Positions 46,587-64,000 of a DNA stretch of 64,000 nt are shown piece by piece (the first letter of the stretch is position 1; every line of letters begins with the position of its first letter). The notes under the pieces were generated by a model. The model saw only the letters and a list, made by a program, of their open reading frames with translations, had not been told where the DNA came from and made no database searches. Both the position numbers and the translations under genes were made by a program. The DNA is from Gammaproteobacteria bacterium (GTDB taxonomy: Bacteria; Pseudomonadota; Gammaproteobacteria; Natronospirales; JAJUFS01). The DNA lies in contig DASVDI010000005.1 of assembly GCA_036381175.1 (NCBI GenBank), forward strand, positions 129-64,128. The letters are read 5' to 3'.

Positions 46587-46602
46587 CTCCGGTCAATGAA
46601 CG

Positions 46603-49445: not shown

Positions 49446-49742
49446 GGCAGCATGCGGTCCCGTGAAAATGCATGACTATCCGAGAGTATTCGCGAAATCG
49501 CAAGAACGAAGAATGCGTTTCAGAGGCTCCAGTCAAAAAGAGACTCAGCGTATCCCGCGTCACTTCGTTCATCTCCTGACGTTCATACGCACTCAAAAGT
49601 GCGTGGTTGGCGCTATGGATTCTCGTCGGGATGACATGCGCGTTTATGGCAACTATGCTTGTTGATTGTGGAATGCAAACAGCAATGACGAGGCCAGACT
49701 TTTCGAAAGTCATGCTGTAACCACTTCACGGGAGAAAGACCA

Positions 49743-50495: not shown

Positions 50496-50617
50496 ACGCA
50501 GTTGCGCCATTCCCAAAATCCAGCTTCCCTGCATTTGAGGCCAGAGTGAAAATACAGTGCTGTATTTCTACTTTGAGCCGGGTTCTTCCCTGGAGATGGG
50601 TAACGGCGAGCCGTGGT

Positions 50618-50995: not shown

Positions 50996-51197
50996 GAATT
51001 CTCCTGGAGTGCGTGCGTTTGAGTTCAGATCATTCTTGAATTTCACCACCCAACATTTCAAGACCGATCTTTTCGAGAGACGCGCAGCGGCGCTTGTCCG
51101 CTGCTGTTCCGGTTCGCGTCTTACATCGATCTCGCAGCTTCTCCGCAGAGCGGAAGCTGTTGTATCGTGATCTCCATTTTGATTGGCGGGAGGCCAC

Positions 51198-51728: not shown

Positions 51729-51805
51729 TTTCTGACGGAGCTTCGATGTTTAAACGTGAGACCTAGCCCTAAATCTCTCTGCTAAATTTACCTTCAGACG
51801 CAACA

Positions 51806-52678: not shown

Positions 52679-52917
52679 TAAATTCCCGCCTGTTTGAATA
52701 GGTCTGTCGCCGAAAACTCTAGCGCCTTGCAGAGCTTGAGGATGTTCACCAGGGAAGGATTCCGTTTCCCCGTCTCGATGTCGCTGATGTAGGTCCGGTC
52801 CATATCAATCTCGAAGCCGAGAACTTCCTGGGTCAGGTCCATCGCCCTGCGCCGCTCCGCGAGAACCTTGCCGAGGCGTTTCCGCTCCGGTGCGAATTTG
52901 AGTGTCTGTTTTGCCAT
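52678..52917 (-). CDS. XRE-family HTH regulator (R-M controller-protein-like), module 1
   Basis: LTQEVLGFEIDMDRTYISDIETGKRNPSLVNILKLCKALEFSATDLF. Confidence 0.85.
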   Translation of the reverse strand: MAKQTLKFAPERKRLGKVLAERRRAMDLTQEVLGFEIDMDRTYISDIETGKRNPSLVNILKLCKALEFSATDLFKQAGI

Positions 52918-52938
52918 GTGGCGGAATTTCACCACTTG

Positions 52939-52961
52939 TCGGATATGAGTCTATCGGATAT
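52939..52961. promoter_or_regulatory. Direct repeat TCGGATAT x2 (15-bp spacing) in the divergent promoter region of module 1
   Basis: TCGGATATgagtctaTCGGATAT, read directly from the sequence. An operator role is inferred only from its position. Confidence 0.3.
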
Positions 52962-53045
52962 AAGTCACATACGGACTTCCGTTAGCTGTTGCTCGACCGC
53001 ATAGCCTCGGATTTGTAATCCATCAAGTCGACAAGGAGTTTCATC

Positions 53046-53324
53046 ATGGACAAGGAAAATAACTACCGCGTCCCCGAAGGCTTCCATCCCTATATTTGCA
53101 TGGACACCATCCGCGGTCTCACGGACGCCATCCATCTCCACATGAACCAAGGCCCCGGCACGCAACTCAATCCCAGCCGCGCCGATCAAGGCGCGCTTGT
53201 CGCCCTCATCGACCAGCTACAGAAACACGTTCGCACGTTCCACGCCTGGCTCATCGAGATTGAAAACATCGGCAACGTCGAACTGCCGGTCACGAATTCG
53301 GATTTCGAATCCTTGTACAAGTAG
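53046..53324 (+). CDS. Small hypothetical protein (92 aa), divergent from the module-1 XRE gene
   Basis: AAGGAG RBS before the ATG. Its last 44 bp plus 7 bp of flank recur at 55828-55878. Confidence 0.55.
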   Translation: MDKENNYRVPEGFHPYICMDTIRGLTDAIHLHMNQGPGTQLNPSRADQGALVALIDQLQKHVRTFHAWLIEIENIGNVELPVTNSDFESLYK

Positions 53325-53404
53325 CAAAAAGCCCCATTTTTGCTTGGAAGCTGCTTACGCTCACCACGCATGTTTAAATAGCTGGTCAAACTCATTCATG
53401 GAAC

Positions 53405-53851
53405 ATGCGGATGAACAGATTTGGACAATGGTTAGCGAAGCTCGCTATTTCCACCCTATCTGCTTGCGTAATTGTTGCTCTCACCGCAGCGCTTCTGTAT
53501 TGGGTCCTTAGTCTTGCCGAAAGCCCGCCTAAAGATTGGGGCACCCTTATCGCACTCCTTCTTCTTTTGATGTTGTTCAACGCGATGTTTTTCGCAAGTT
53601 GGGCCGCGTTTGACGACTCGTTCAACACACGCTCACCCATCTGGACTCTGCGTGCCGCTGGAATCGCGCTCGCCGCTCAGGCCACGGTAACAATATGGGC
53701 GGGATGGAAAACGCATACTGTTGGGAGTTTTGGTTATGCCGCGCCCGCAGTATTCATCGTTGCAATGTCCGTATGTTTTTTTTCAGGCCTTATTACCTTC
53801 GTTATCGCACTCAATATCTTTCATCTGACGAAAGTAGATCGCGTCGAATAG
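53405..53851 (+). CDS. Hypothetical membrane protein (4 TM)
   Basis: Four hydrophobic helices. No family recognised. Confidence 0.5.
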   Translation: MRMNRFGQWLAKLAISTLSACVIVALTAALLYWVLSLAESPPKDWGTLIALLLLLMLFNAMFFASWAAFDDSFNTRSPIWTLRAAGIALAAQATVTIWAGWKTHTVGSFGYAAPAVFIVAMSVCFFSGLITFVIALNIFHLTKVDRVE

Positions 53852-54649
53852 ATACTTAAGCAACAGAAATTGGTCTCGTCTATTCACGTCGGCACCGTTT
53901 ACGCGCTCAGTGAGTTTCTTCGCATGTTGCTCGAAGTAACCTTGATTCGGATGCGAATAATCGGCGGCCAGGGCCGCGGCACGCGCTGCTGCCGACGCAG
54001 CGTCGCGCCACTGGTTCAAGGCAGCGTAACCATCTGCCAGGCTGTCCCACGCGTTGGGTGAACCCGGGTTCGCGTCCGCATTTCGCTTGAACAGCGCAAG
54101 CGCCTGTGCGTTCTTGCCGTTTTCCAACGCGAGGTAAGCAAGCTGGTTCAACGCGTCCTCGGGAATCGCAACGGTGCGTCCCAGCGTTTTCGATACCGCC
54201 TCGAAATGTCGCTCGACGCCCTCAAGTCCCTGATCCATCACCTCCGGCGACATCCGGTAGCCGGCGTAGAGCGCACGAAAGGCATCAACTTGCGCAACCA
54301 GTTGCAAGGTCATGTGCTGTTCGTCAGGAAAGTCCGCACTTTTCCAGCGGAATCCCGGCGGCGATTTCTCTTCCAGCGTCGCGACCAGTTGCCTGTGATT
54401 CGCCAGTGCCTGACCGCGATTATCGGATTGCGCCACGCACAAGAAGGCGGGGAGCTTTTCGCGTGCCTCGAATGATTTTTCCAGGGAGCGCTGTGGCAAT
54501 CGATCATCCCAATCCAGCGATGGCTCGAATGCAAAGTATGCGTGAAAGAGCGACGGTTCCGCCGTCAAGGTATAAAGGACGAATTGCCCGCCGCTTGAAT
54601 GTCCGGTAAGTATCCGCATGCCGTCAGTCCGGTACTGTTTCTCGATCAC
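53783..54649 (-). pseudogene. Alpha/beta-hydrolase (putative-esterase family) with a C-terminal TPR-like region; apparently 5'-truncated
   Basis: The nucleophile elbow GHSSGG lies only 16 codons after the first possible start (GTG 54649). The frame stays open upstream to an in-frame stop at 54824-54826 (..AKYFKQFLSDELIPVIEKQY) with no start codon in between. The 3' end overlaps the convergent gene by 69 bp. Confidence 0.55.
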
Positions 54650-55081
54650 CGGGATGAGTTCGTCGGAAAGAAACTGCTTGAAATACTTCGCGCCACCGCC
54701 GCAAAAAGCAGCAGAGCGAATCTGATGACCATGGTCCCCACCCTTGATTTCGATTGTTGCGCGTCTGCGCGCCGTGCTTACCCGACATAAGGCCGGGAAG
54801 CGTAAAGCACAAGGCGTCTGAGATCAGATTTACTTTCGCTTTTGAGGAACTGAACTGAACATCCGCATTCAGAAATGAGTTTTGAATGTCTGCATGCCAA
54901 GGCAGGATGTGACGAAGGAGATGATCGAGCGGTACCTCTAAATTCAGGGTTAGTTAAAGATTGATCAGGCTCTGGAATCCGACACCTGATTCGTCAGCGG
55001 ACCCTTTGAAGTATTCAATCGTGAGCTCGTCCAGCCGATATTCAACTTTCACGGCGTAACTACTCCGCATTCGATTGCGAA

Positions 55082-55411
55082 TCAAATTCGGCAATCGATG
55101 TTGATCTTCGGCTTGCGGCCCTTGCGCGCGGATTCGGACCTGGACACATTGATCCGCACGCTTCCCACACGACCGAGCAATTCAACGAGCTTGTCGAGCG
55201 AGAAGGTCGTGAGATCGCTGCTCATCAGGCGGCTGATTTTCGGCTGAGTGACGTGCAAGGTTTTTGCTGCTTGTGCCTGCGTCAGCCCTTCCCGCCGGAT
55301 ATATTCCTGCAGCGCGATCATGAAATCCGCGCGCAAACGGAGGTTGGTGGCTTCTTCGGCTTCGAAGCCGAGATCCGTGAATACATTTCTGCTGCTCTTG
55401 CTCATGTCCAC
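55082..55411 (-). CDS. XRE-family HTH antitoxin (HigA-like)
   Basis: NVFTDLGFEAEEATNLRLRADFMIALQEYIRREGLTQAQAAKTLHVTQPKISRLMS..FSLDKLVELL. It lies 4 nt downstream of the toxin gene. Confidence 0.8.
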   Translation of the reverse strand: MDMSKSSRNVFTDLGFEAEEATNLRLRADFMIALQEYIRREGLTQAQAAKTLHVTQPKISRLMSSDLTTFSLDKLVELLGRVGSVRINVSRSESARKGRKPKINIDCRI

Positions 55412-55415
55412 TACC

Positions 55416-55751
55416 TCAATGTGCTCGCCGCCGGATCAGACCAAGCCGTTGCCTGGCGAGTCGGATATCCGCGACCGCTGTTCGCTGCGTCTTTTTTCTG
55501 AACGCGTGCAACACGTGAATTCGATCGGTTCGTGCCGTTACGTAGATGACGCGAAATGCGCCGTCAATACTGATGCGCACCTCACGGACCCGAGGCCCAA
55601 TACTTTTCATGGGCTTCCAGCTCGTCGGCGCAAGCCCTTGCTGCAGGCGCCGCAGTTCCGTGCCGACCGCTCGACGTACACGCAAAGGAAACGCCTTTAC
55701 GCTGTCCAGCGAATCTCCGTGCCAGATGATGTCCTTTTCCAATGAACACAT
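55416..55751 (-). CDS. RelE/HigB-superfamily toxin (phage Gp49-like)
   Basis: IIWHGDSLDSVKAFP..GTELRRLQQG..WKPMKSIGPRVREVRI..FRVIYV..IHVLHAFRKKTQRT. The start is uncertain (ATG 55751 or TTG 55766). Confidence 0.75.
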   Translation of the reverse strand: MCSLEKDIIWHGDSLDSVKAFPLRVRRAVGTELRRLQQGLAPTSWKPMKSIGPRVREVRISIDGAFRVIYVTARTDRIHVLHAFRKKTQRTAVADIRLARQRLGLIRRRAH

Positions 55752-55777
55752 TCCTTGTGAGTCCAAGCTTCGTCAAT

Positions 55778-55793
55778 ATACCTTATTTGGTAT
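55778..55793. promoter_or_regulatory. Palindrome upstream of the toxin-antitoxin operon (candidate operator)
   Basis: ATACCTTATTTGGTAT, read directly from the sequence. Confidence 0.35.
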
Positions 55794-55827
55794 AGCTTGT
55801 CCTCCGGCGAAAACATCCGCACCGCCT

Positions 55828-55878
55828 AACTGCCGGTCACGAATTCGGAATTCGAATCCTTGTACAAGTAGCAAAAAG
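55828..55878. repeat. 51-bp duplicate (1 mismatch) of 53281-53331, i.e. an orphan copy of the 3' end of the 92-aa gene
   Basis: AACTGCCGGTCACGAATTCGGA[A/T]TTCGAATCCTTGTACAAGTAGCAAAAAG. The two copies were aligned by eye. Confidence 0.85.
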
Positions 55879-56044
55879 GGTACTAACCCCTTTTTCCGAA
55901 CCCGTATTGCAGTTTCGGGAGGCGCGACTAGGCTTGAACAGATGGCCGGCGCAGTCCGGTTCTCTCCAACCTCCTGGGTAGATCCGGTTTCAGGAGCTCG
56001 CATCGTTCGCCGAACGGCGTCTGTTCGCAGGCAAAGGGAAAATC

Positions 56045-56500
56045 ATGTTCAAACAATGCACCCAACTGATCGCTGTCCTGTCTGCTTTGGCAGGATTCAC
56101 AACGGCACTTGCAATGGAGCAGCCGACACAGGAGAACCCGCTCGCGTTCGCCGCAAGTTCAGCGTCGCTGAAATGGGGACCGTGCCCGGAAATTTTTCCG
56201 ACAGGCTGCGAAATCGCCGTGCTGCATGGAGATCCGGCGAGGGAGAATGCCGATCTCTTCTTCAAGGTTCCGGCAAACTACAAAATCCCGAACCACTGGC
56301 ACACGTCGGCGGAGCGCATGGTGCTTGTATCGGGAAAGATGACCGTCCAATACGAAGGTCACGAGCCCGTAACACTGAAGAAAGGCGTATACGCCTATGG
56401 GCCACCGAAACTCCCGCATGCGACGACCTGCTTGAAAGGTGAAGAATGCGTGCTGTTCATCGCGTTCGAAGAGCCGGTCGATGCACATCTTGCAGAGTAG
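56045..56500 (+). CDS. Exported cupin-domain protein
   Basis: Signal peptide. HWHTSAERMVLVSGKM..GPPKLPHAT are the cupin His motifs. Confidence 0.7.
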   Translation: MFKQCTQLIAVLSALAGFTTALAMEQPTQENPLAFAASSASLKWGPCPEIFPTGCEIAVLHGDPARENADLFFKVPANYKIPNHWHTSAERMVLVSGKMTVQYEGHEPVTLKKGVYAYGPPKLPHATTCLKGEECVLFIAFEEPVDAHLAE

Positions 56501-56524
56501 TAATCACCTGACTGCTCACAATAC

Positions 56525-56550
56525 AAAGCCCCGCTAGCGGGGCTTTTGTT
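56525..56550 (+). terminator. Rho-independent terminator
   Basis: AAAGCCCCGCTAGCGGGGCTTTTGTT. Confidence 0.8.
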
Positions 56551-56649
56551 CAACTAAACCCGGCTTTCTCGATCGCCAAGGCTTGAGCCATCGCTTCAAT
56601 GCCGGGAGGACGCGTGCCCCGGATTCATCGCCACCGAAAGACGCGGGCT

Positions 56650-56997
56650 TCATTGCGGCAGATCCCCGAAGACGGCTTGCAACTCCGGCAATTCGTCGGC
56701 TGCAAACTCCTCTTCGTAGAGAAACCGAATCCACTGAAACAGCGTATCCAGCCAGAAATCACGCAGCCACATGTCAGGCCGTGAGGACCGGTGAAACCAG
56801 ATCTCGCACAGCGCATGCCAATGCGTTTCTGCCAACCAGAGCCGATGCTCCCCCAGCAACGTCAGCACCGCTTTCGCCCGCGCCTGCCGCTCCGCGGCCA
56901 GCGGCTCATGCCCCGGCCATCGGCTCACTTCGGTCAACAAGGTTTCGACGAGCTCGCACTTGGTTTTGCCTTCGAGACCCTTCCTTGAGTCTTTCAT
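56650..56997 (-). CDS. Small hypothetical protein (115 aa), divergent from the module-3 XRE gene
   Basis: ORF with a Trp-rich helical sequence. No family recognised. Confidence 0.45.
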   Translation of the reverse strand: MKDSRKGLEGKTKCELVETLLTEVSRWPGHEPLAAERQARAKAVLTLLGEHRLWLAETHWHALCEIWFHRSSRPDMWLRDFWLDTLFQWIRFLYEEEFAADELPELQAVFGDLPQ

Positions 56998-57108
56998 CGA
57001 TCCTCCTTGTCTCTCATGGCCATGCGCTCATCAGGGTTGAGGCCAGCTTACTCCACGGGTAAGGCTAGCTCAACCAGCATGGGATGGAACCCAAGGAGGT
57101 GACATCCC

Positions 57109-57318
57109 ATGAAAGACTTCAAGAAGAAATTCGGATCACGGCTCAAAGAACTTCGTGCCGAGCGCGACATCACCCAGGACAAGCTGGCCGAACTGCTGCA
57201 AGTCAGTCTTGATACCGTGAAGAACTACGAAGCGGGAAGGTACGGGCCGGAATTTGCGCGGCTGCCTGATCTGGCGAAGGCGTTAAACGTCAAGGTGAAG
57301 GATCTTTTCGAGTTCTGA
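57109..57318 (+). CDS. XRE-family HTH regulator, module 3
   Basis: AAGGAGG RBS. GSRLKELRAERDITQDKLAELLQVSLDTVKNYEAG. Confidence 0.8.
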   Translation: MKDFKKKFGSRLKELRAERDITQDKLAELLQVSLDTVKNYEAGRYGPEFARLPDLAKALNVKVKDLFEF

Positions 57319-57338
57319 TTTATCGAAGGCTGCATGAA

Positions 57339-57848
57339 ATGAAGCTTCTGATCACAGCGTTCACACTTGCATTACTCGCGACCGCGGCGACAGGTGGTAA
57401 CTACGTCCATCCCGCGCTCAAGAAGGCGATGACTCAGGCACGAGCTGATGGCATCAGTTACGGAAAGGTTACGCTTGAGCTTCGCTACGATGAAGTATGT
57501 GAGACGCAGTTGGTGAAAATTCACGAATCGGTGCCCGCCGGATACTTCGATGAAGCGGTTGTCACAGCGCTTACAGATCCAGATCACGGCTGGTATTCCT
57601 ATAGGCGGGAAGTTCCTGCAGACACCGCTATCCTGAACAAAATTCCGATCAGCGCGTATATACGATCGATCCGGCTGCAAGATGGCAGATGGGGACACTG
57701 CTTAATCGACAAGGGCGTCAGGCTGCGGGCATGGAAAACGGACGAAAACGTTTCGCACGAATCAAACTGGAGCAATGACGACACGCTCGATCCTGATTCA
57801 CTTCCGACGTTTACCGTGCCGTTCGAAATCAATCTCCAGGATGAGTAG
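57339..57848 (+). CDS. Exported protein with a TonB-C-like segment
   Basis: The signal peptide is MKLLITAFTLALLATAATG. GKVTLELRYDEVCETQLVKIHESVPAGYFDEAVVTAL resembles a TonB_C fold motif; this is a weak, by-eye call. Confidence 0.5.
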   Translation: MKLLITAFTLALLATAATGGNYVHPALKKAMTQARADGISYGKVTLELRYDEVCETQLVKIHESVPAGYFDEAVVTALTDPDHGWYSYRREVPADTAILNKIPISAYIRSIRLQDGRWGHCLIDKGVRLRAWKTDENVSHESNWSNDDTLDPDSLPTFTVPFEINLQDE

Positions 57849-57957
57849 CGGTAGAACATTCTCGACGCTGTCTTGAGATCCAGAGATCTGCCAAGCGCAA
57901 GACGCGATCCTAAATGTTCCTGAGGGGATGATTGTTTGATGAGGGAGGATTGAGAAT

Positions 57958-57984
57958 GGCGGCCAGAGGCCGCCTTTGGTGTTT
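57958..57984 (+). terminator. Rho-independent terminator
   Basis: GGCGGCCAGAGGCCGCC followed by TTTGGTGTTT. Confidence 0.65.
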
Positions 57985-58048
57985 CAATGTGAGATGAGCG
58001 CCTTAGGGCTGCAGGAAGTATTAAAGGTAGCAAAACGGGAATATACAC

Positions 58049-58485
58049 ATGCGCCTGATCCACTACATTATTTTTTTTTGACCTTGTTCATTTGCGTACC
58101 AGTGCACGCGAACGATGGTTCTTCACACACCCCCGAAGTGGCTAACGATTTGTATTACTGCGGAATAATTTCTGAGTTTTACGGAACGGTAAGCGACGAG
58201 CAGTTGTCCTCCCAATGGCAGGCCAGCAAAGACTCTTTTTTCCGTCTTGCGCACCTCCTGAGCGACCATCCGGACAGCCTTCTTACGAATGCAGTAGTGG
58301 ACCGGTTTCGCGATTTTGTGAACCGTCTCGATCAAGAAGAGATGGACGACCGTGCCATTAAGAACGAACTATCCGTGCAGTACGCGAGATGCGTAAAGCT
58401 CGTAGACGCTCTCCACGGCGAATTTCGGGAACGGGTCTTTCAGGCGGAAAGAACTATTCTGGAGCTTGCGCAAACAACGCGATAG
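58049..58485 (+). pseudogene. Exported hypothetical protein gene whose ATG and n-region are out of frame with the body at a T9 tract (58071-58079)
   Basis: ATG 58049 reads MRLIHYIIFF then TGA. One extra T would give MRLIHYIIFFLTLFICVPVHA|NDG.., continuous with track ORF 57976..58485. Confidence 0.55.
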
Positions 58486-58515
58486 CCGCGGCTCTCGGCA
58501 CAATGCCGCGCCACT

Positions 58516-58627
58516 GGTACCTGGAGATCAAAGACGCCCTCACCCGCTGCGCAGAGCTTTACTCGGCGGCGCTAGCCAGATGGATGTCGGCACACGTAGA
58601 TGAATGTTTGATGAGGGAGGAATGAAA
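58516..58627. repeat. About 112-bp orphan copy of the 3' end of the 59696..59947 gene (the intact copy spans 59838-59949)
   Basis: GGTACCTGGAGATCAAAGACGCCCTCACCCGC..GATGAATGTTTGATGAGGGAGGAATGA versus GGTACCTGGAAATCAACGGCGCCCTCACCCGC..GATGAATGCTTGATGAGGGAGGAATGA. Confidence 0.8.
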
Positions 58628-58760
58628 AATGCGGCCGGAAGTGGCACTTGATGCTGTTATTCAACGGGAAGCCTCTTGCCCCTGCTGTTAACCTCGACAG
58701 CGTTTAGGGTCAAGTCTTGTGCTTTGAATTTCAATGCCATGCAAAGCGCAAGACTTGACC

Positions 58761-59333
58761 CTATGACTTCAGTAAAGCAGCAGCGGCGAGTAACGAGTCG
58801 TAGACCGCGACCAGTTTTCCAGCGTCGCTATCTGGATCAGGGCTCCAGGTCCTCGCACCACCATCAAACCCTCTTTCTATGCAGATAGCCGAAAAATGGT
58901 ACGCCTCGCCATCCAGTCCCATGCTCGAATGGTCAAAGCTTGCTTCCGCCATCGCGCTACAGGTGTATCTCTCAAGGTCCTTGTAGAAGGAATAAGAAAC
59001 ATCAACGTCAACAGAACTGGCAGTTGGATGAATACCTTCTTGATATGTACCGTCGCTGAACGACTCCCACACTTGCGCATCCAGCGTCGCCACGCGAAGG
59101 ATCGCTCGTTCTCTGTCGGCCAACACCGTTACCGCGTACTCCTTCTGGAACGAAGGTAGCGCCATCATCTGCAGCCTCGGCGCTCCTTGAATCGCGGGCT
59201 GAAAAGTTTTCAGTAATGCAATTCGATAGTCGGCAAGGAACAGATCGTATGGAGATCGATCGGGAACCAATCCGCCTGCGTGAAGCGGGGACATACCTAT
59301 CACCACTAGCACTATGAGAATTAGGCGCGTCAT
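58761..59333 (-). CDS. Exported hypothetical protein (module 2 cargo)
   Basis: ATG 59333 gives MTRLILIVLVVIGMSPLHAGG, a signal peptide. ATGA overlap with the XRE gene stop. The longer track ORF, running to 59627, overlaps the XRE gene. Confidence 0.6.
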   Translation of the reverse strand: MTRLILIVLVVIGMSPLHAGGLVPDRSPYDLFLADYRIALLKTFQPAIQGAPRLQMMALPSFQKEYAVTVLADRERAILRVATLDAQVWESFSDGTYQEGIHPTASSVDVDVSYSFYKDLERYTCSAMAEASFDHSSMGLDGEAYHFSAICIERGFDGGARTWSPDPDSDAGKLVAVYDSLLAAAALLKS

Positions 59334-59593
59334 AGACCTGCCGCCTTGAAAAGTTCCGCTGCCGAAATCTTCAGCGCTTTGCAAAGCTTCGCGATGTTCT
59401 TGAGTGCGAGGTTGCGTTCGCCGCGTTCGACGCCGCCGACGTAAGCCACATGGAGTCCGGCGAGATGCGCAAGGTCTTCCTGCGAGAGGTCGAGTTTTTT
59501 GCGGCGGGCCTGAATGGCGTGGCCGAGGGCTTCGAATACGGCCTGATCCTGCGGATCGATCTTTGCCTTGGCCTTGGTCTTTTTCTTCTTCAT
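59330..59593 (-). CDS. XRE-family HTH regulator (controller-protein-like), module 2
   Basis: LSQEDLAHLAGLHVAYVGGVERGERNLALKNIAKLCKALKISAAELFKAAGL. It is clearly paralogous to the module-1 regulator. Confidence 0.85.
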   Translation of the reverse strand: MKKKKTKAKAKIDPQDQAVFEALGHAIQARRKKLDLSQEDLAHLAGLHVAYVGGVERGERNLALKNIAKLCKALKISAAELFKAAGL

Positions 59594-59628
59594 GGGCAGT
59601 AATTTGCCCCTGCCCCGCTTGATTCAAC

Positions 59629-59646
59629 CAATACTTATGAGTATTG
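59629..59646. promoter_or_regulatory. Palindrome in the divergent promoter region of module 2 (candidate operator); a further half-site AGTATTG lies at 59665-59671
   Basis: CAATACTTATGAGTATTG, read directly from the sequence. Confidence 0.35.
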
Positions 59647-59695
59647 TAAAGATAACTACTTAAAAGTATTGACGAAATTTCTGGAGGAGAACGTC

Positions 59696-59947
59696 ATGGA
59701 AGACATCCGCAAGCTGCTGAGCGACCACGATGCCGAGATCGCGCCGGAATCACTGGCCTACATATTACGTGGGCTGAACGCGGCGATCGCCGACCAGCTC
59801 GCCGACTGCCAGCCGGACGATCCGGCAGAACGCCGCCGGTACCTGGAAATCAACGGCGCCCTCACCCGCAGCGCTGAACTGTACTCCGCGGCGCTAGCTC
59901 GATGGATATCGGGGCACGTGGATGAATGCTTGATGAGGGAGGAATGA
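59696..59947 (+). CDS. Small helical hypothetical protein (83 aa), divergent from the module-2 XRE gene
   Basis: GGAGGAG RBS before ATG 59696. The C-terminus ..AELYSAALARWISGHVDECLMREE recurs as orphan fragments upstream. Confidence 0.6.
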   Translation: MEDIRKLLSDHDAEIAPESLAYILRGLNAAIADQLADCQPDDPAERRRYLEINGALTRSAELYSAALARWISGHVDECLMREE

Positions 59948-60783
59948 GAAAGGTGGTCAAACCTTCCGTCGATGCTGTAGTGCGAAGAATTATCGGCTCG
60001 ATGCCGAAATGTGAGACCGAGATCCGCAGAACTCGAGTACCGAACACGGTGAGAGTGGCAACCACGGCTGATTGCGGCCAGAATACCGCGCCATCTACTT
60101 TATCCATTTACTCCATGACACGATTTTCTACAGAGTCAGACTTGGTGCTGCTAGCCGCGGACCTACTGGTACGTCCACCGGGGTCAAGACTTCCATTCCT
60201 TGTATATCGAGAAGTGCCAACTCCCAACGGCTCAACAGACTTGGCTGCCGCTCGTTTTCGAAAAGACTTGAACGCTAACTTGGCAGCGCTTCCTGCTCGC
60301 TGGGCCTACGCGGCCTCGTCGATCCCTGTTCGAAAAACGTTTTCTATCGCTTGGTTTGCAAATATTGCTGGGACGAGTCGATCACGCGCATCCGCCGTGA
60401 TCACTACCCTAGTTGATTGCGGATTAGTCCAACCTTTCGAGTTAAATGGCACAACATCGTTCGTGAAAATAGAACCGATTCGACTTCCCGCAACACGAAT
60501 CTTCGCATTCGAAGCGAAGTTGAGAGATTGGAGAAAGGCATTAAGGCAAGCGCACAATAATCTTCGATATGCCGACAAGTCGTGGGTGATCATGGACGAG
60601 TCGCATTCGGGGCCAGCTTTGAAAAACAAGAAACTATTCCGACAAGAGAAAGTCGGTCTCATCACCGTTTCTACGGATGGAAGAATGAAAGAAGAGGTGC
60701 GCGCCATCACGACAGGTCTAATGAATCCTTGGCACCGATGGGAAGTTGCGTGGCGGCTTTGGCAAACCTATATTAGCCCATAA
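59944..60783 (+). CDS. Hypothetical protein with a PD-(D/E)xK-nuclease-like motif pair and an inserted wHTH-like segment
   Basis: ATG 59944 overlaps the upstream TGA (ATGA) behind a GGGAGG RBS. Candidate motifs are NGSTDLAAARF (D) and RIFAFEAKLRDWRKALRQA (ExK). An alternative start is ATG 60115. Confidence 0.5.
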   Translation: MRKVVKPSVDAVVRRIIGSMPKCETEIRRTRVPNTVRVATTADCGQNTAPSTLSIYSMTRFSTESDLVLLAADLLVRPPGSRLPFLVYREVPTPNGSTDLAAARFRKDLNANLAALPARWAYAASSIPVRKTFSIAWFANIAGTSRSRASAVITTLVDCGLVQPFELNGTTSFVKIEPIRLPATRIFAFEAKLRDWRKALRQAHNNLRYADKSWVIMDESHSGPALKNKKLFRQEKVGLITVSTDGRMKEEVRAITTGLMNPWHRWEVAWRLWQTYISP

Positions 60784-61945
60784 ACTCTAGCGCCTCCTTC
60801 CAAGCTTGCAGATGCGCGTCAGAGCCAGGCGCATCTAACCTGATTTTTTTTGCATCCAATTTCGAATAAGCCACCCGAGCCTTTTCAACCATCTCACCAA
60901 GCCTTTCGATCTTTTCACCCTTGCCCAATTCTTGGAGCTCCTGCAACTGGCGAAAAAAAACGATGAAATAGTGTTTATAAAGCATGGGTTGATTAAACGT
61001 GGGTTCAACCATTGCATCAAGAGCTTGATTTCCGTATTCCGTCTCAACGTATATGTCTTTCCAAAGGCCTGGAAGCTGCTTTGAAATTTCTTTCGCACTA
61101 TCGAGTCGTATCCAATTCAACAAACCAGGAACGTAGAGCCTCGCCTTCGGCCCCCGCCTTTCCTCCGCTAACGATAGGAACTTGTCCACCGAGAAAATTC
61201 GAGTATTCTCAAAAGCTCCAGTTGCAATTCCTCGAGGCTCAAGCACGGAATATAACAACGCCTCGGTATTTAAGTAGCCCAATACTAATTCGAGATCCGC
61301 ACCTTTGATCTCTTCGCAAAATCTATAGAAATTAATGATGTCGGTTCCAGATGTAATCTGTTTTAGGTCGCGCTTTATATCTGGTATCAAATAGATACCG
61401 TCAATTTCTTCATAGCTTGTTACCCAATTCAATAAATACTCGCGATATTTTTGCGACTCGAGCATCGACGAAGTCACCACCAATGTCAGAAACACCGGAA
61501 CGTCCACACCGATGGAGTTTATGGCAGCTAGAAACGGCTTTACTGTAAAGGCATCCAGTCGGTCGGTTAGATCAGGCCAAAGTTGATCATGATAGCGAAC
61601 AGGAATGACGATGCCCTCGAAACCCTTGTCCACTTGAAATTGGACACAACGTTTCGCGCATTCCATAGCAACGGCTGAAAAACTCGTTGTATCAAATCCC
61701 CCGCCGCCTGAGATCGTCTCCGGGAAAAAATCATAGGAGTGCAATTTCTTCTTTGAAGACCTCGGCAAATAGAACTGCGGGTCAAAGTAGGATTTCGTTA
61801 ATAGTTCAGCTGGAAGTTTTTCGACCTGATGTAAAGCGTAGTGAACCGGGCTGAGGATAAGACCATCGCCACTCTTGTCGTCCTGAATAGACTCTTTGTT
61901 CCAGTTTGTATAGTGACCACACTGGTGCAGGATCTTATAAGACAT
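60773..61945 (-). CDS. Hypothetical protein orf390 (alternating beta/alpha pattern, possibly TIM-barrel-like), last gene of the kinase operon
   Basis: The ATG lies 1 nt after the kinase TAA. Candidate strands: GLILSP, SYFDPQFY, GIVIPVRY, VFLTLVV, GIYLIPD, ELVLGYL, GIATGAF, RLYVPGL. No family recognised. Confidence 0.6.
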   Translation of the reverse strand: MSYKILHQCGHYTNWNKESIQDDKSGDGLILSPVHYALHQVEKLPAELLTKSYFDPQFYLPRSSKKKLHSYDFFPETISGGGGFDTTSFSAVAMECAKRCVQFQVDKGFEGIVIPVRYHDQLWPDLTDRLDAFTVKPFLAAINSIGVDVPVFLTLVVTSSMLESQKYREYLLNWVTSYEEIDGIYLIPDIKRDLKQITSGTDIINFYRFCEEIKGADLELVLGYLNTEALLYSVLEPRGIATGAFENTRIFSVDKFLSLAEERRGPKARLYVPGLLNWIRLDSAKEISKQLPGLWKDIYVETEYGNQALDAMVEPTFNQPMLYKHYFIVFFRQLQELQELGKGEKIERLGEMVEKARVAYSKLDAKKIRLDAPGSDAHLQAWKEALEFMG

Positions 61946-61946
61946 C

Positions 61947-62933
61947 TTATTTCAGCTCCTTCCGAAGAGTAGCAATAGAATCGCGCAGATCATTGCGGCG
62001 CCGGACGCGTCGAAATGGTTGCTTCTCTAGCATTCTGTGGATCAACTGCGACAGGTCATTGGATATTCCAAATGTTTCTTCAAGATTTGGAAGATCTTCA
62101 TTTGTAACAGCGACCAGCTTGTCGTCAATGCTCTTCTTGCCGGTTACGAACGGATTACTTCCCGAAAGCATTTCGTATGCAATTATGCCGATACAGAATT
62201 GATCACTCTTATGCGTAATGTTTGCCTTATCATTCGTTGCCTGTTCCGGACTGCAGTATCCGGGCGTACACGGACCCCAAGGAGAGAATGTCGCTGTCTT
62301 TCCTTTTTCACCTTCGAGGCGAACAATCCCAAGATCAATAATCGCCACGCCACCATCGTCTCGGATCAGTATATTCGGCGGCTTAAGGTCTCTGTGGACA
62401 AGACCCTTGCCCCACAACACCTCCATGGCTTCCACCACGTCGGCCATGAAGTCAATCACCTTGGCTTCAGTGTCGAACTCTTTTAAGCATTCCGACAGCG
62501 GCCTCGACGGAATTTTTTCCTCGATCGTAACTAAGTATCGAATCGGTAGCGTTTCGCCGGTTTCGGGATGCTCATGGAATATTCTCGCAAAATACAGAGT
62601 TGGAAACGCTGTTGAATCGATTGATGCAAGGAAGCCAATTTCGCGCTCAAGATAAGAAAGAGATGCCGCATCGATGTCCGCACTTATTTTCAGCACGACC
62701 TCGCCAGCAGGTATTGCAAGGAAGTCGTTTAGCGCTTCTAGGGTGTCGAGGTCTTCGTCACCCTCCGCAGATTCCTCCTCCTCATCCGTTTCCGTGGCTG
62801 GCTTCTCCGCTGGTTGGTAGTTGCAGAAGTAAACAACACGTTGACCAGATGCAGAAGCGACTTCTTCTATTGCAACGCCCGGTACAAATGCTGCTGCGAG
62901 CTCACGAAGCGCGTTGCTGTCTGTTAATGGCAC
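61947..62933 (-). CDS. Hanks-type Ser/Thr protein kinase (atypical N-lobe with an acidic insert)
   Basis: Motifs: GLVHRDLKPPNILI (catalytic loop), IIDLGIVRL (DFG-equivalent), GYCSPEQ (APE-equivalent) and VVLKISAD (candidate VAIK Lys). Start set at GTG 62933 (AAGGA RBS) because the track ORF start at 63044 runs into the tRNA-like gene. Confidence 0.75.
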   Translation of the reverse strand: MPLTDSNALRELAAAFVPGVAIEEVASASGQRVVYFCNYQPAEKPATETDEEEESAEGDEDLDTLEALNDFLAIPAGEVVLKISADIDAASLSYLEREIGFLASIDSTAFPTLYFARIFHEHPETGETLPIRYLVTIEEKIPSRPLSECLKEFDTEAKVIDFMADVVEAMEVLWGKGLVHRDLKPPNILIRDDGGVAIIDLGIVRLEGEKGKTATFSPWGPCTPGYCSPEQATNDKANITHKSDQFCIGIIAYEMLSGSNPFVTGKKSIDDKLVAVTNEDLPNLEETFGISNDLSQLIHRMLEKQPFRRVRRRNDLRDSIATLRKELK

Positions 62934-62969
62934 GGTCAGTTCCTTGTTCGGTTCTTTATCAGCCGGAAA

Positions 62970-63084
62970 TGGGAACGGTGGCGGGACTTGAACCCGCATC
63001 CTCCTTGCCCATATCCTTATTTCCGTGACGAAATTGAAGGACATGTAGAAGACAAGGTGCTCTATCCGATTGAGCTACACCGCC
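62970..63084 (-). tRNA. tRNA-Arg(UCU)-like gene carrying a 36-nt self-complementary insertion at anticodon-loop position 37/38; function unknown
   Basis: Folded by hand on the minus strand.
- Acceptor stem: GGCGGTG / CACCGTT
- U8
- D arm: GCTC-AATCGGATA-GAGC (G18 G19 A20)
- Anticodon stem: CCTTGT / GCAAGG
- Anticodon loop: CTTCTA + [CATGTCCTTCAATTTCGTCACGGAAATAAGGATATG] + G
- Variable loop: AGGAT
- T arm: GCGGG-TTCAAGT-CCCGC
- Discriminator C and an encoded CCA. Confidence 0.6.
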
Positions 63085-63085
63085 G

Positions 63086-63646
63086 TCAACTCACTGCAAC
63101 TCGCTGCACGTCTTTGGCCCCGATCTCGATCGCTCTCTGTATCAGAGCGACATACTTCTTGCTCTGGAACCCTGGACGACCTTCCGATTTCAGTCTTTCG
63201 ATCACAAGATACGGGTTGAGCAACAGGACATAATTAAACTCGCCCGAAGCCCCCTCCGTCGCCTTGATGAAGCCCAACACGACCAACTGGCGCATTCTTT
63301 CTATCCATGTGCGTTCAGCACGCTGTCCTGCAAAACCTGATTCAAAGGCCAACTCTCTTGGGTTGGTGATCGTAATAAACCCTTCGTCCCAAACTCGGCA
63401 CCACAGGGAGAGATAACACCGAGAGACGGGCTTGCCATTCGTCAGGTCATCCATGATTTCCATCATCAATGGCAGCGTTCGAGGGAGCGTTGTGTATCCA
63501 TCAGATACCTTCCTGTTCCACAGGGCCTCGGCAGTCACTTCAGGCCAAAGTGACGCCCGAAGTTCCAGTCTTTTTTGAGTCATTTTTGCGCTGCGGCTGG
63601 CCTTCATACTCTTCTTCAACTCCGAAATTCTTGTCACCCGAGACAA
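63086..63646 (-). CDS. Hypothetical protein orf186, first gene of the kinase operon
   Basis: The stop TGA at 63088-63086 lies 1 nt before the tRNA-like 5' end at 63084. The start is uncertain (TTG 63646, ATG 63607 or ATG 63583). It contains 6 AGA codons. No family recognised. Confidence 0.55.
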   Translation of the reverse strand: MSRVTRISELKKSMKASRSAKMTQKRLELRASLWPEVTAEALWNRKVSDGYTTLPRTLPLMMEIMDDLTNGKPVSRCYLSLWCRVWDEGFITITNPRELAFESGFAGQRAERTWIERMRQLVVLGFIKATEGASGEFNYVLLLNPYLVIERLKSEGRPGFQSKKYVALIQRAIEIGAKDVQRVAVS

Positions 63647-63837
63647 TGTCTATTATTGCAATTTTTCTTTATAAATCAACGGCTTATGTGTGTCGGCCTG
63701 CGCGTCGTATTCGCAAAAACACCCCACTCAACATGCTGGGCACGCCCCAATCGTGACTCCAACATAGTGAGTACGACATTTTTGTGCAAAAAAAAACGCG
63801 TAATTCATTGTTTATCAAAGGAAATAAAAAATAACCG

Positions 63838-63894
63838 TAGTGCTCCTAGTGCTCTGTGTGCTACCTGTGCTCTGATAGTGCTCCCAGTGCTCCG
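63838..63894. repeat. Iteron-like array: six GTGCT(C) cores spaced 9-9-9-11-9 bp, next to an AT-rich tract
   Basis: TAGTGCTCC TAGTGCTCT GTGTGCTAC CTGTGCTCT GATAGTGCTCC CAGTGCTCC. The core Gs are at 63840, 63849, 63858, 63867, 63878 and 63887. AT-rich DNA spans about 63780-63835. Confidence 0.75.
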
Positions 63895-64000
63895 GAAAAG
63901 CAAGGCGGAATCCCATCAGAATTCCTGAGCCAAGTGCTTGAGGAGCGCGGCAGATCCACGACGGATTGAGTCCGTCCAGGCGTCCGCAGTAGGAAATCGA

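What the first reader, a model, noticed from the sequence alone, without database searches (positions are those of the whole stretch)
60773..63894. Tightly packed operon orf186 / tRNA-like RNA / Hanks kinase / orf390, preceded by an iteron-like array: candidate undescribed system
Four minus-strand elements are packed with almost no spacer:
- The orf186 stop is TGA at 63088-63086.
- The tRNA-like 5' end is at 63084 and its encoded CCA ends at 62970.
- The kinase GTG is at 62933, behind an AAGGA RBS.
- The kinase TAA is at 61949-61947.
- The orf390 ATG is at 61945.

A structured tRNA-fold RNA therefore sits inside a protein-coding operon, between an unknown 186-aa protein and a eukaryote-like Ser/Thr kinase (HRDLKPPN, DLG, SPEQ). 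The operon ends with an unknown 390-aa protein that has a beta/alpha alternation suggestive of a TIM barrel.

The whole block is visibly lower in G+C than the core genome. It lies among toxin-antitoxin and nuclease-like genes, which is the usual setting of defence or addiction modules.

I cannot match this gene set to any system I know (it is not Stk2-, PglW-, TerY-P- or HipA-like by architecture). A functional link between the kinase, orf390 and the RNA is pure inference.
Basis: partly seen in the sequence, partly recalled or inferred. Interest (0 to 1): 0.8.

Follow-up and report, generated by a model that had tools for sequence, protein, structure and literature searches.

The report
Two adjacent modules, not one operon
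The tightly packed block is two unrelated mobile modules that sit side by side only in this genome: a DNA-binding regulator with its repeat array and an unusual tRNA-shaped RNA, next to a widespread, undescribed kinase, TIM-barrel enzyme and nuclease trio that looks like a new anti-phage defence system.

Summary
The sequence features are real: an AGCAC repeat array, a small ORF, a 115-nt tRNA-like RNA, an active-looking Hanks kinase and a TIM-barrel-like 390-aa protein, all in low-GC DNA. Comparative genomics splits the block in two.

**Module B (the triad).** This triad recurs in about 55 of 60 species-level genomes from at least 8 phyla. It sits next to Kiwa, R-M and a retron, and sometimes carries a PPP phosphatase. 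None of 65 triad loci has orf186 or the long-armed RNA.

**Module A.** orf186 is really 173 aa and is a winged-helix protein. Across its family it is preceded by a phased AGCAC array (50 of 65 loci; 0 of 300 control windows). It is followed by variable Abi, TIR or DUF3800 genes. Only its three closest members carry the tRNA-like RNA 1-8 nt after the stop codon. That RNA keeps the cloverleaf through compensatory changes, and its anticodon loop is replaced by a 36-47-nt hairpin.

**Verdict.** This is a chance juxtaposition of two interesting, undescribed modules. A functional link between the kinase and the RNA is not supported.

The parts
63840..63891 (-). Phased array of six AGCAC motifs (spacing 9, 11, 9, 9, 9 nt). 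Proposed operator or binding array for the winged-helix protein encoded downstream.
   Evidence: Sequence and repeat finder. The pattern has 2 matches against 0.03 expected. It is aligned and conserved in L066 and L147. At least 3 phased AGCAC lie 200-430 nt upstream in 50 of 65 orf186-family loci, against 0 of 300 control windows. A 2-nt indel in the window shows it is not coding.
63652..63679 (-). Sigma-70-like promoter (TTGATT, 16 nt, TG-AATAAT) for the winged-helix gene.
   Evidence: Consensus scan. The TTGATT block is invariant in the three aligned upstream regions. Function is inferred.
63086..63607 (-). 'orf186', really 173 aa from ATG 63607. A winged-helix DNA-binding protein of an unnamed family.
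   Evidence: Start from the public gene call and homologue N-termini. The AF2 model has pLDDT 89, with weak Foldseek matches to TrmBL2, MarR, IclR and TubR winged-helix proteins. No Pfam, NCBIfam, PADLOC or PHROGs match. The family gives 115 word-search hits, 149 confirmed metagenome stretches (80 loci kept) and 165 plasmid records.
62970..63084 (-). tRNA-like RNA. It has full acceptor, D and T arms and tertiary-contact nucleotides. The anticodon loop is replaced by a 5-nt bulge (UUCUA) plus a hairpin of about 36 nt. CCA is encoded.
   Evidence: Rfam tRNA 48.1 bits. Fold z = -3.9. Two relatives lie 8 and 6 nt after the stop of the closest orf186 homologues. There are 5 pairs with compensatory double changes, and 95.5% of cells are paired against 42-65% when the partners are slid. 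The covariance model finds it nowhere else in 151 loci.
61947..62933 (-). Hanks-type Ser/Thr protein kinase (328 aa), first gene of the conserved triad. It has a degenerate Gly loop (SGQRVVY) and an acidic insert that only this copy has among the 13 aligned.
   Evidence: Pfam Pkinase 4e-27. PADLOC PD-T4-6 models down to 3.5e-32, C-lobe only. Catalytic residues are invariant in alignment A11. It lies directly upstream of orf390 homologues in 57 of 60 loci.
60773..61945 (-). orf390: a stand-alone TIM-barrel-like enzyme of unknown activity, second gene of the triad.
   Evidence: AF2 pLDDT 89, pTM 0.89. Only generic TIM-barrel matches, with TM at most 0.44. No PDB sequence relative. No family in four libraries. 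There are 781 clusters at 50% identity with E <= 1e-3; the full-length hits among the 150 best listed are about 380-415 aa, with no larger fusion proteins. About 50 invariant residues, including Q8, G10, H11, H35, D55, R117, K195, N226, E228, N247 and R249.
60115..60783 (+). Third gene of the triad (222 aa from the ATG at 60115). It converges on orf390 and overlaps its 3' end by 11 nt. Motifs are PD-(D/E)xK-like (E7, D42 in GIAD, E133-x-K135, Q145), with a MarR-like winged-helix insert.
   Evidence: tblastn finds it next to orf390 in about 53 of 60 loci, in either orientation. Alignment A7 gives the invariant motif residues. Weak MarR, IclR and Crp winged-helix matches cover the insert. The nuclease assignment rests on motifs only.

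Best explanation
The block is two independent horizontally moving modules that abut only in this genome.

**Module A (63891-62970)**
- It consists of a phased AGCAC array, a promoter, a 173-aa winged-helix protein and a tRNA-shaped RNA.
- I propose that the protein binds the AGCAC array and controls its own transcription unit. That unit runs into whatever variable cargo lies downstream.
- In the window, with no terminator or promoter in between, the cargo is the kinase operon.
- In the three closest family members the transcript carries an L-shaped tRNA mimic right after the stop codon.
- I infer that RNase P and the 3' tRNA-processing enzymes cut this RNA out. That would separate the regulator message from the cargo message and release a stable RNA.
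- Having lost its anticodon loop, this RNA cannot decode. It may act as a tRNA-Arg-like mimic or decoy.

**Module B (62933-60115)**
- It is a conserved triad: an active Hanks kinase, a novel TIM-barrel enzyme and a convergently transcribed PD-(D/E)xK-type nuclease with a winged helix. A PPP-family phosphatase joins it in some lineages.
- I propose it is an anti-phage (abortive-infection or restriction-like) system. The kinase, reversed by the phosphatase where one is present, would sense or gate. The nuclease would be the effector. The TIM-barrel enzyme would make, destroy or install a small-molecule or nucleic-acid mark.

**Shown versus inferred**
- Shown: the anatomy, the conservation patterns, the RNA covariation and the catalytic-residue conservation.
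- Inferred: DNA binding to the array, RNase P processing, decoy function, defence function and the division of labour within the triad.
For: **The two modules separate cleanly**
- Kinase, orf390 and the third gene co-occur in about 55 of 60 genome loci across Gamma- and Betaproteobacteria, Verrucomicrobiota, Bacillota, Bacteroidota, Desulfobacterota, Bdellovibrionota, Planctomycetota and a nanohaloarchaeon.
- There is no orf186 hit in any of them, and only ordinary 76-77-nt tRNAs.
- The two closest orf390 relatives (54% and 52% identity) also lack module A.
- In 86 orf186-family loci, only orf186 itself was hit.

**Module A is a unit**
- The AGCAC array is present in 50 of 65 loci against 0 of 300 controls.
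- The protein has a winged-helix fold.
- Downstream genes vary: DUF3800, TIR, Abi_C, PBECR1-like and unknowns.
- Family members also sit on 4.8-kb ColE1-type plasmids and among Abi genes.

**The RNA belongs to module A**
- It occurs only in the window, L066 and L147, which are the three closest orf186 relatives at about 62% identity.
- The structure is maintained by 5 compensatory pairs.
- U8, A14, G18-G19, the T-loop UUCAAGU and G46 are kept.

**The triad looks like a defence system**
- It is flanked by Kiwa on one side and by a type I R-M S subunit and a YhcG nuclease on the other.
- Elsewhere it is next to a retron I-C reverse transcriptase and an integrase, a type II methyltransferase, or TniQ.
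- A PPP phosphatase is a fourth gene in 9 of 60 loci and in L153.
- Kinase and nuclease catalytic residues are invariant.
- Distribution across phyla is patchy, and the triad can be a bare 3-gene insert.
Against: - No experiment bears on any function, and no transcript data are available.
- The window does allow read-through from orf186 into the kinase. The two modules may therefore be co-expressed here, and a local functional link cannot be excluded.
- The RNA is known from only three sequences, two of them on short metagenomic contigs. Folding z-scores for L066 and L147 alone are unremarkable.
- The nuclease call rests on motifs without an HMM or structural match.
- In one genome the triad sits among metabolic genes with no mobile or defence neighbours.
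- Most neighbours sampled had no PADLOC hit.
- The triad is absent from 5,426 complete E. coli genomes and from 50,697 phage records, and is rare on plasmids. No model-organism handle was found in those collections.
Confidence: 0.6

Rival explanations
1. All four minus-strand elements form one system, in which the tRNA-like RNA is a substrate, cofactor or guide for the kinase and/or the TIM-barrel enzyme.
For: - The elements are co-directional with 1-37-nt spacers.
- No promoter-like or terminator-like site lies between the RNA and the kinase.
- The kinase lacks the 150-350-nt upstream region that it has in other genomes.
Against: - None of 65 triad loci has orf186 or the long-armed RNA.
- None of 86 orf186 loci has the kinase or orf390.
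- In the other two RNA-bearing loci the next gene is convergent and unrelated: Abi_C in L066 and an unknown gene in L147.
Confidence: 0.06
2. The tRNA-like element is mainly a recombination landmark. It would be a tRNA-Arg(UCU)-derived gene carried by module A that serves as a landing site, like an ordinary tRNA gene, for integrating islets such as the triad. Its RNA product would be irrelevant.
For: - In other genomes the triad lies 150-330 nt downstream of same-strand ordinary tRNA genes: Pro in L003 and probably in L152 (type not determined there), Met in L017 and L030, Val in L056. I estimate this is roughly ten times more often than chance.
- The cargo after the RNA differs in all three RNA-bearing loci.
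- The 5' half through CUUCUA resembles a tRNA-Arg(UCU) anticodon stem-loop (sequence).
Against: - No integrase was found among the ORFs of 44-60 kb that were scanned against Pfam.
- There is no repeat of the 3' end of the RNA anywhere in the window.
- The whole cloverleaf and the hairpin insert are kept by compensatory changes, while the neighbouring protein has diverged to 62% identity.
- The spacing to the stop codon stays at 1-8 nt. A mere att site would need only the 3' part.
Confidence: 0.2
3. The triad is not an immune system. It would instead be an addiction (toxin-antitoxin-like) or signalling and DNA-repair module that merely hitch-hikes in variable regions.
For: - It is a bare insert between metabolic genes in one genome.
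- Two of its three proteins are absent from PADLOC.
- Kinase-phosphatase pairing is also typical of ordinary signalling.
- Convergent, overlapping genes resemble toxin-antitoxin or R-M-style addiction units.
Against: - It has Kiwa, R-M, YhcG, retron and TniQ neighbours.
- Its distribution is patchy across phyla, with 42-50% identity among Proteobacteria.
- It is low-GC relative to its host.
- The kinase scores best against defence-kinase models.
Confidence: 0.22
4. The element is a genuine intron-containing tRNA gene that is spliced to give a working tRNA.
For: - The mature-domain features are all intact.
- The insert sits at or next to the canonical intron position.
- CCA is encoded in the window.
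Against: - The 36-47-nt insert is far too short for a group I intron, the only known bacterial tRNA intron type (established knowledge).
- There is no bulge-helix-bulge motif in the fold.
- The loop remnant differs among the three copies (CUUCUA, CUUUCUA, ACUCGAA), so no single anticodon is conserved.
- There is a 1:72 mismatch in two copies.
Confidence: 0.03

Closest known systems
Single-gene Hanks-kinase defence systems (PD-T4-6; Stk2)
   Same: A eukaryote-like Ser/Thr kinase in mobile, defence-type DNA. The window kinase matches PADLOC PD-T4-6 models at 3.5e-32 and PHROG 'serine-threonine kinase' at 2e-24.
   Different: - The match covers only the generic C-lobe.
- The kinase here is short (about 305-330 aa) with a degenerate Gly loop.
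- It is always encoded with two dedicated partners (a TIM-barrel-like protein and a PD-(D/E)xK-like protein) that PD-T4-6 and Stk2 lack.
TerY-P triad and other kinase-phosphatase conflict modules
   Same: A three-gene module built round a Hanks kinase. A Ser/Thr phosphatase is present in a subset of loci.
   Different: - There is no TerY/vWA protein.
- The phosphatase, where present, is a PPP-type metallophosphatase (Pfam Metallophos) rather than PP2C.
- The core partners are a TIM-barrel enzyme and a nuclease-like protein.
YrlA-type bacterial Y RNAs (tRNA mimics bound by Rsr/Ro60; PMC4201824)
   Same: A bacterial non-coding RNA that keeps the acceptor, D and T arms of tRNA while the anticodon region is replaced by a long helix.
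   Different: - In YrlA the RNA ends lie in the Ro-binding stem and the 'acceptor' is closed (own knowledge of that family). Here the 5' and 3' ends are at the acceptor stem with a discriminator base, and CCA in the window, as in a real tRNA.
- There is no Rfam Y-RNA match and no rsr or rtcB neighbour.
- The partner gene is a winged-helix protein.
Intron-containing pre-tRNA of eukaryotes and archaea
   Same: An intact mature domain, with extra nucleotides inserted 3' of the anticodon position that pair to extend the anticodon arm.
   Different: - The host is bacterial.
- There is no bulge-helix-bulge motif.
- No conserved anticodon is present.
- No bacterial splicing machinery is known for such inserts.
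Array-binding winged-helix or ribbon-helix-helix proteins (TubR, ParR, omega) and defence-island regulators (BrxR, CapW)
   Same: A small DNA-binding protein encoded just downstream of a phased array of short direct repeats, and upstream of variable defence-type genes. Foldseek lists TubR and TrmBL2 among its weak matches.
   Different: - There is no partner NTPase, as a partition locus would have.
- There is no WYL or other sensor domain, as in BrxR and CapW.
- The 5-nt AGCAC unit at 9-nt spacing and the protein family itself are not in Pfam, NCBIfam or PADLOC.

Membership tests
Canonical tRNA | Cloverleaf with acceptor, D and T arms and conserved tertiary nucleotides | tested here: met
   Rfam RF00005 scores 48.1 bits over model positions 1-71. 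The MFE is a cloverleaf. U8, A14, G18-G19, G46 and the UUCAAGU T-loop are present in all three copies.
Canonical tRNA | 5-bp anticodon stem closed by a 7-nt loop carrying an anticodon | tested here: not met
   44 nt replace the 6 loop positions in the Rfam alignment. Default ARAGORN finds no tRNA. The loop remnants differ among the three copies.
PD-T4-6 (PADLOC) | Match to the PD-T4-6 kinase models | tested here: met
   E = 3.5e-32 to PDLC04042, covering residues 139-326 only, which is the generic kinase C-lobe.
PD-T4-6 (PADLOC) | Single-gene system | tested here: not met
   The kinase is immediately followed by orf390 in 57 of 60 loci, and the third gene is adjacent in about 53 of 60.
HipA-type kinase toxin | HipA_C-type kinase fold next to a HipB-like antitoxin | tested here: not met
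   Pfam gives Pkinase and PK_Tyr_Ser-Thr with no HipA family. The Hanks motifs HRD, DLG and SPE are conserved.
TerY-P triad | TerY (vWA) protein plus PP2C phosphatase plus Ser/Thr kinase | tested here: not met
   No vWA or PP2C match appears in the window proteins. The optional phosphatase elsewhere is Pfam Metallophos.
TGT/DpdA-like transglycosylase | TGT-family sequence or fold similarity | tested here: inconclusive
   No Pfam or NCBIfam TGT hit. No TGT appears among the top 50 PDB fold matches. Phage 'queuine tRNA-ribosyltransferase' models appear only at ranks 15, 21 and 38 (E 0.018-0.084, TM 0.30-0.37), no better than glycosidases and aldolases.
PD-(D/E)xK nuclease superfamily (third gene) | Ordered catalytic motif: E, then (P)D, then (D/E)xK, on a restriction-endonuclease-like core | tested here: inconclusive
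   E7, D42 (GIAD) and E133-A-K135 are invariant or nearly so in 13 homologues. No HMM or PDB profile match to the core was found, and no structure could be predicted.
YrlA / bacterial Y RNA | Rfam Y-RNA-like model match and an rsr (Ro60) neighbour | tested here: not met
   Only RF00005 is found, at both the gathering and the E <= 1 thresholds. No Ro60-like gene lies in the region.
Iteron-type plasmid replicon (Rep plus iterons) | A Rep-family initiator next to its iterons, serving as the replicon | tested here: not met
   orf186 has no Rep-family Pfam match. Homologues sit on ColE1-type plasmids that have their own Rop/RNA replicon, and on a plasmid with a separate RepA. Many are chromosomal.

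The most novel reading that the evidence does not exclude
Two undescribed things are real at once.

1. Kinase, TIM-barrel enzyme and PD-(D/E)xK/winged-helix nuclease (with or without a PPP phosphatase) form a new, phylum-spanning anti-phage system. In it, protein phosphorylation gates a nuclease, and a novel TIM-barrel enzyme supplies or removes a signal or a nucleic-acid mark.

2. The AGCAC-array and winged-helix cassette is a general 'driver' placed in front of diverse immune effectors. In one clade it has recruited a tRNA-Arg-derived mimic with a rod in place of the anticodon loop. This RNA would act as a decoy or sensor for tRNA-directed enzymes, such as phage or host anticodon nucleases or tRNA repair and modification enzymes.
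Probability: 0.3. Interest if true: 0.75.

Novelty: new variant of a known kind. Interest (0 to 1): 0.6.

Why it matters
- **A testable candidate immune system.** If the triad is a defence system, it adds a compact kinase-based module whose two partner proteins have no family assignment at all. Homologues exist in culturable strains, including Vibrio metschnikovii CIP 69.14, Aeromonas piscicola LMG 24783, Dechloromonas hortensis, Microbulbifer and Variovorax.
- **A possible discovery marker.** The AGCAC-array and winged-helix cassette could be used to find new effector genes, because what follows it is variable and enriched in Abi, TIR and DUF3800 proteins.
- **A rare kind of RNA.** The long-armed tRNA mimic is a bacterial tRNA-shaped non-coding RNA outside translation. 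It would be a clean substrate for asking how RNase P and tRNA-processing signals are reused in mobile elements.
- **A caution about method.** Tight spacing in one genome suggested an operon-level link that comparative data do not support.

Tried and rejected
- **tRNA with a spliced intron.** Rejected: the insert is too short for group I, there is no BHB motif, and no anticodon is conserved.
- **Integration scar.** No integrase among the ORFs of 44-60 kb scanned against Pfam, and no repeat of the RNA's 3' end. Kept only as a minor rival.
- **orf186 as an iteron-binding Rep.** Rejected: homologues sit on plasmids with other replicons and on chromosomes.
- **AGCAC array as a Ser/Thr-rich coding repeat.** Rejected: a 2-nt indel in the window breaks the frame while the motifs persist.
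- **orf390 as TGT, DpdA or TatD.** No specific support.
- **Conserved neighbours of orf186.** All-against-all clustering of ORFs in 87 loci found none.
- **Structure of the third protein.** A word-based homologue search found only 2 proteins.
- **Triad in E. coli genomes, phages and plasmids.** None in E. coli or phages, and three distant plasmid hits.
- **Literature searches.** Four full-text searches, for kinase with TIM barrel and for tRNA-like RNAs in defence, found nothing that describes either module; a fifth turned up the YrlA tRNA-mimic paper used as the closest known RNA.
- **Closest orf390 relative (L156).** It has a 185-aa gene before the kinase, but that gene is unrelated to orf186 and there is no tRNA-like RNA.

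Full report

Yes, in nearly every detail.
- On the minus strand, an ORF ends with TGA at 63088-63086.
- A tRNA-like element spans 63084-62970.
- A kinase ORF runs from GTG 62933 to TAA 61949-61947.
- A 390-aa ORF starts at 61945 and ends at 60773.

The tRNA-like element:
- Rfam's tRNA model scores it 48.1 bits (gathering score 29). All four arms align, and 44 nt stand where the six loop positions should be.
- Default ARAGORN does not call it. With introns allowed it does.
- The minimum-energy fold is a cloverleaf whose anticodon arm is a long, interrupted helix. It scores -43.6 kcal/mol against -30.9 ± 3.3 for shuffles (z = -3.9).

The surroundings and the two proteins:
- G+C falls from about 0.60 to 0.45-0.50.
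- The 'iteron-like array' is six AGCAC motifs at 63891-63840, spaced 9, 11, 9, 9, 9 nt.
- The kinase has Pfam Pkinase at 4e-27.
- orf390 gives a confident AlphaFold model (pLDDT 89) with alternating beta/alpha elements. It matches only generic TIM barrels.

Two corrections:
- The first ORF most likely begins at ATG 63607 (173 aa), as in the public gene call and in all homologues.

**2. Kinase and orf390 belong to a conserved triad that does not include orf390's upstream neighbours**

- orf390 has hundreds of full-length homologues, all 'hypothetical' and without Pfam domains.
- A profile search of 1.84 billion cluster representatives finds 781 clusters at E ≤ 1e-3. The full-length hits among the 150 best listed are about 380-415 aa, and none is a larger fusion protein.
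- A scan of one genome per species returned 60 loci.
- In 57 of them the kinase lies directly upstream. In about 53, a homologue of the plus-strand gene lies directly downstream. It is usually convergent, and in a few distant loci co-directional or upstream.
- The hosts are Gamma- and Betaproteobacteria, Verrucomicrobiota, Bacillota, Bacteroidota, Desulfobacterota, Bdellovibrionota, Planctomycetota and a nanohaloarchaeon.
- No locus has an orf186 homologue.
- None has a long-armed tRNA-like RNA, by ARAGORN, by motif search, or by a covariance model built from the RNA.
- The two closest orf390 relatives (54% and 52% identity) were fetched separately, and they also lack both.

**3. What the triad proteins look like**

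- **Kinase.** It keeps the VAIK lysine (K82), the C-helix glutamate (E98), HRD (180-182), N187, DLG (200-202) and the SPE segment in 13 diverse homologues, so it should be active. Its Gly-rich loop is degenerate (SGQRVVY). Among the 13 aligned kinases, only the window copy carries the acidic insert.
- **orf390.** About 50 residues are invariant, including Q8, G10, H11, H35, D55, R117, K195, N226, E228, N247 and R249. It has no PDB sequence relative. Structural matches are aldolases, xylanases and triose-phosphate isomerase, with TM at most 0.44. In the viral library, phage queuine-tRNA-ribosyltransferase models appear only at rank 15 and below. The TGT/DpdA idea is therefore neither supported nor strictly excluded.
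- **Third protein (222-245 aa).** It has invariant E7, near-invariant D42 in GIAD, and invariant E133-A-K135, W139 and Q145. A MarR/IclR-like winged helix is inserted between the two halves. I read this as a PD-(D/E)xK nuclease with a DNA-binding insert. This rests on motifs alone.
- **Fourth gene.** In 9 of 60 loci, and in a Pseudoalteromonas locus, the next gene is a PPP-family metallophosphatase.

**4. Context of the triad**

- In one metagenomic contig it lies between KwaAB (Kiwa) and a type I R-M S subunit plus a YhcG nuclease.
- In Pseudoalteromonas it lies in an integrase-bearing element next to a retron type I-C reverse transcriptase.
- In a Clostridia MAG it is next to a type II methyltransferase. 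In Vibrio metschnikovii it is next to TniQ.
- In one genome it is a bare three-gene insert between metabolic genes.
- In five loci a same-strand ordinary tRNA gene ends 150-330 nt before the kinase.
- It is absent from complete E. coli genomes and from phage records, and is nearly absent from plasmids.
- Together with the low G+C in the window, this is the signature of a horizontally moving defence or addiction module.

**5. orf186, the array and the tRNA-like RNA form a different module**

*The protein.* orf186 belongs to an unnamed family. It gave 115 word-search hits, 149 confirmed metagenome stretches (80 loci kept) and 165 plasmid records. Its model (pLDDT 89) is a winged-helix protein with weak matches to TrmBL2, MarR, IclR and TubR.

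*The array.*
- The AGCAC array is a family-wide feature. Of 65 distinct loci with at least 400 nt upstream, 50 have at least three phased AGCAC motifs and 38 have at least five.
- These lie about 200-430 nt before the gene. No such chain appears in 300 control windows.
- In the three closest members the array aligns base for base. The window has a 2-nt indel that rules out coding.
- A conserved TTGATT...AATAAT promoter-like site lies between the array and the gene.

*The neighbours.* Nothing else is conserved around the gene. What follows it varies: DUF3800, TIR, Abi_C, a PBECR1-like nuclease, unknown proteins, or convergent genes. On 4.8-kb ColE1-type plasmids it is one of four annotated genes, followed 4 nt later by an unknown 181-aa protein. 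On a Labrenzia plasmid it lies among Abi genes.

**6. The RNA**

- Only the three closest orf186 relatives (about 62% identical) carry the tRNA-like RNA. These are the window, L066 (a Logan contig with TniQ upstream and a convergent Abi_C gene downstream) and L147 (a farmland-soil contig).
- The RNA starts 1, 8 and 6 nt after the stop codon respectively.
- A covariance model finds it in no other of the 83 family loci.
- The three copies are about 80% identical.
- Of 22 core pairs, 5 show compensatory double changes: acceptor 6:67, anticodon stem 29:41 and 30:40, and T stem 49:65 and 50:64.
- 95.5% of cells are paired, against 42-65% when the 3' partners are slid. Only 1 of 500 shuffles reaches the observed covariation.
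- The tertiary-contact nucleotides are kept.
- The insert always forms a hairpin, but it differs in length and sequence.
- The 5' side of the former loop survives as a bulge: UUCUA in the window, UUUCUA in L147 and ACUCGAA in L066. The window version reads like the 5' half of a tRNA-Arg(UCU) loop.
- Position 1:72 is G·U in the window and mismatched in the other two.
- CCA is encoded only in the window.
- The insert is too short for a group I intron and has no bulge-helix-bulge motif.
- I conclude that it is a selected, tRNA-shaped non-coding RNA that cannot decode.

**7. How it most likely works**

*Module A.* The winged-helix protein binds the phased array and regulates a transcription unit made of itself and whatever lies downstream (inferred). 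In the RNA-bearing clade the transcript carries a perfect RNase P/tRNA-processing substrate. Cutting there would separate the regulator message from the downstream RNA and release a stable L-shaped RNA (inferred). A decoy or sensor role for tRNA-directed enzymes is possible but untested.

*Module B.* This is a kinase-gated nuclease system. The kinase, opposed by the phosphatase where one is present, senses or transduces. The PD-(D/E)xK/winged-helix protein attacks DNA. The TIM-barrel enzyme handles a small molecule or a nucleic-acid mark. The convergent, overlapping gene arrangement recalls restriction-modification and toxin-antitoxin units. All of this is inference from anatomy and context.

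*In the window.* The kinase has lost the 150-350-nt upstream region seen elsewhere and sits 37 nt after the RNA, with no terminator between. It is therefore probably expressed by read-through from module A. That is a local consequence of insertion next to a tRNA-like gene, the kind of site the triad also occupies elsewhere.

**8. Comparison with known systems**

- The kinase resembles PD-T4-6 and Stk2-type defence kinases, but it is not a single-gene system.
- The triad is not TerY-P, because it has no vWA or PP2C protein. It is not HipA-like or PglW-like either.
- The RNA works like a tRNA mimic of the YrlA kind (PMC4201824). It differs in topology, in its partner gene and in family membership.
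- The array and winged-helix pair resembles centromere- or operator-array binders and defence-island regulators, but it fits no named family.

**9. Verdict**

- The interpretation as one four-part system is not supported.
- Two separate, apparently undescribed modules are present.
- The more substantial one is the triad of kinase, TIM-barrel enzyme and nuclease, a good candidate for a new defence system.
- The more curious one is the long-armed tRNA mimic attached to an array-controlled winged-helix gene.

Noticed in passing
L148:2316-2436 and L149:9782-9904 (IMG/VR viral contigs): Two phage tRNA-Arg(UCU)-like genes, one of them in a tRNA gene cluster (L148). Both carry 44-46-nt inserts inside the anticodon (between CUUC and UAA). 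The two inserts have different sequences, and each folds into two small hairpins. They are unrelated to orf186 and differ in architecture from the window RNA.
   Followed up: partly
window 57927-57981, 58599-58653, 59921-59975; also 58509-58634 / 59831-59956: Three direct copies of a 55-nt segment and a 126-nt repeat (84% identical). At least the second and third copies coincide with the 3' ends of paralogous small ORFs that end in ...AELYSAALARW(I/M)S(G/A)HVDECLMREE; no ORF was assigned to the first. They lie in tandem just upstream of the triad's third gene and are interleaved with XRE-type HTH genes.
   Followed up: partly
window 58705-58763: A near-perfect 25-nt inverted repeat (92% complementary, 9-nt loop). 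It gives weak, sub-threshold matches to miRNA-precursor models. It is probably a terminator or a protein-binding palindrome.
   Followed up: no
L025, L037, L038, L040, L042, L043, L049, L054, L015 (about 8000-8720 in most) and L153:11990-12745: A PPP-family metallophosphatase (GDLHG...GDLIDRG) is a fourth gene directly after the nuclease-like gene. It occurs in Enterobacterales, Vibrio, Aeromonas, Colwellia, Oceanobacter and Pseudoalteromonas copies of the triad, and is absent from the window.
   Followed up: partly
L150 (E. coli plasmid pB20123_5, NZ_CP142935.1) 2886-4271: 4.8-kb ColE1-type plasmids of E. coli, Klebsiella, Enterobacter, Salmonella and Serratia carry an AGCAC array, an orf186 homologue (WP_021543812) and, 4 nt later, an unknown 181-aa protein (WP_021543811). 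These are two of only four annotated genes. This offers a tractable model for the cassette.
   Followed up: partly
L066:229-1506 and L038:9930-11507: TniQ genes lie next to the orf186 and tRNA-like module (L066) and next to a triad (L038, Vibrio metschnikovii). Both modules may travel as cargo of Tn7-like transposons.
   Followed up: no
window 62690-62790 (kinase residues about 48-80): The window kinase has an acidic insert of about 25 aa (TETDEEEESAEGDEDLDTLEALNDF) between the degenerate Gly loop and the VAIK lysine strand. The 12 aligned homologues lack it.
   Followed up: no
window 46000-64000: G+C drops stepwise from about 0.60 to 0.50-0.55 at about 46 kb and to 0.45-0.50 beyond 60 kb. The public contig ends about 300 nt past the window. 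The whole right end is probably accessory DNA whose far boundary was lost at an assembly break.
   Followed up: partly
L017:4837-4880: A 3' tRNA fragment (GGTCTGGGTTCGAATCC...CTCCA) lies about 100 nt after an intact tRNA-Met and just before the kinase of a triad. It looks like a remnant of integration at a tRNA gene.
   Followed up: no
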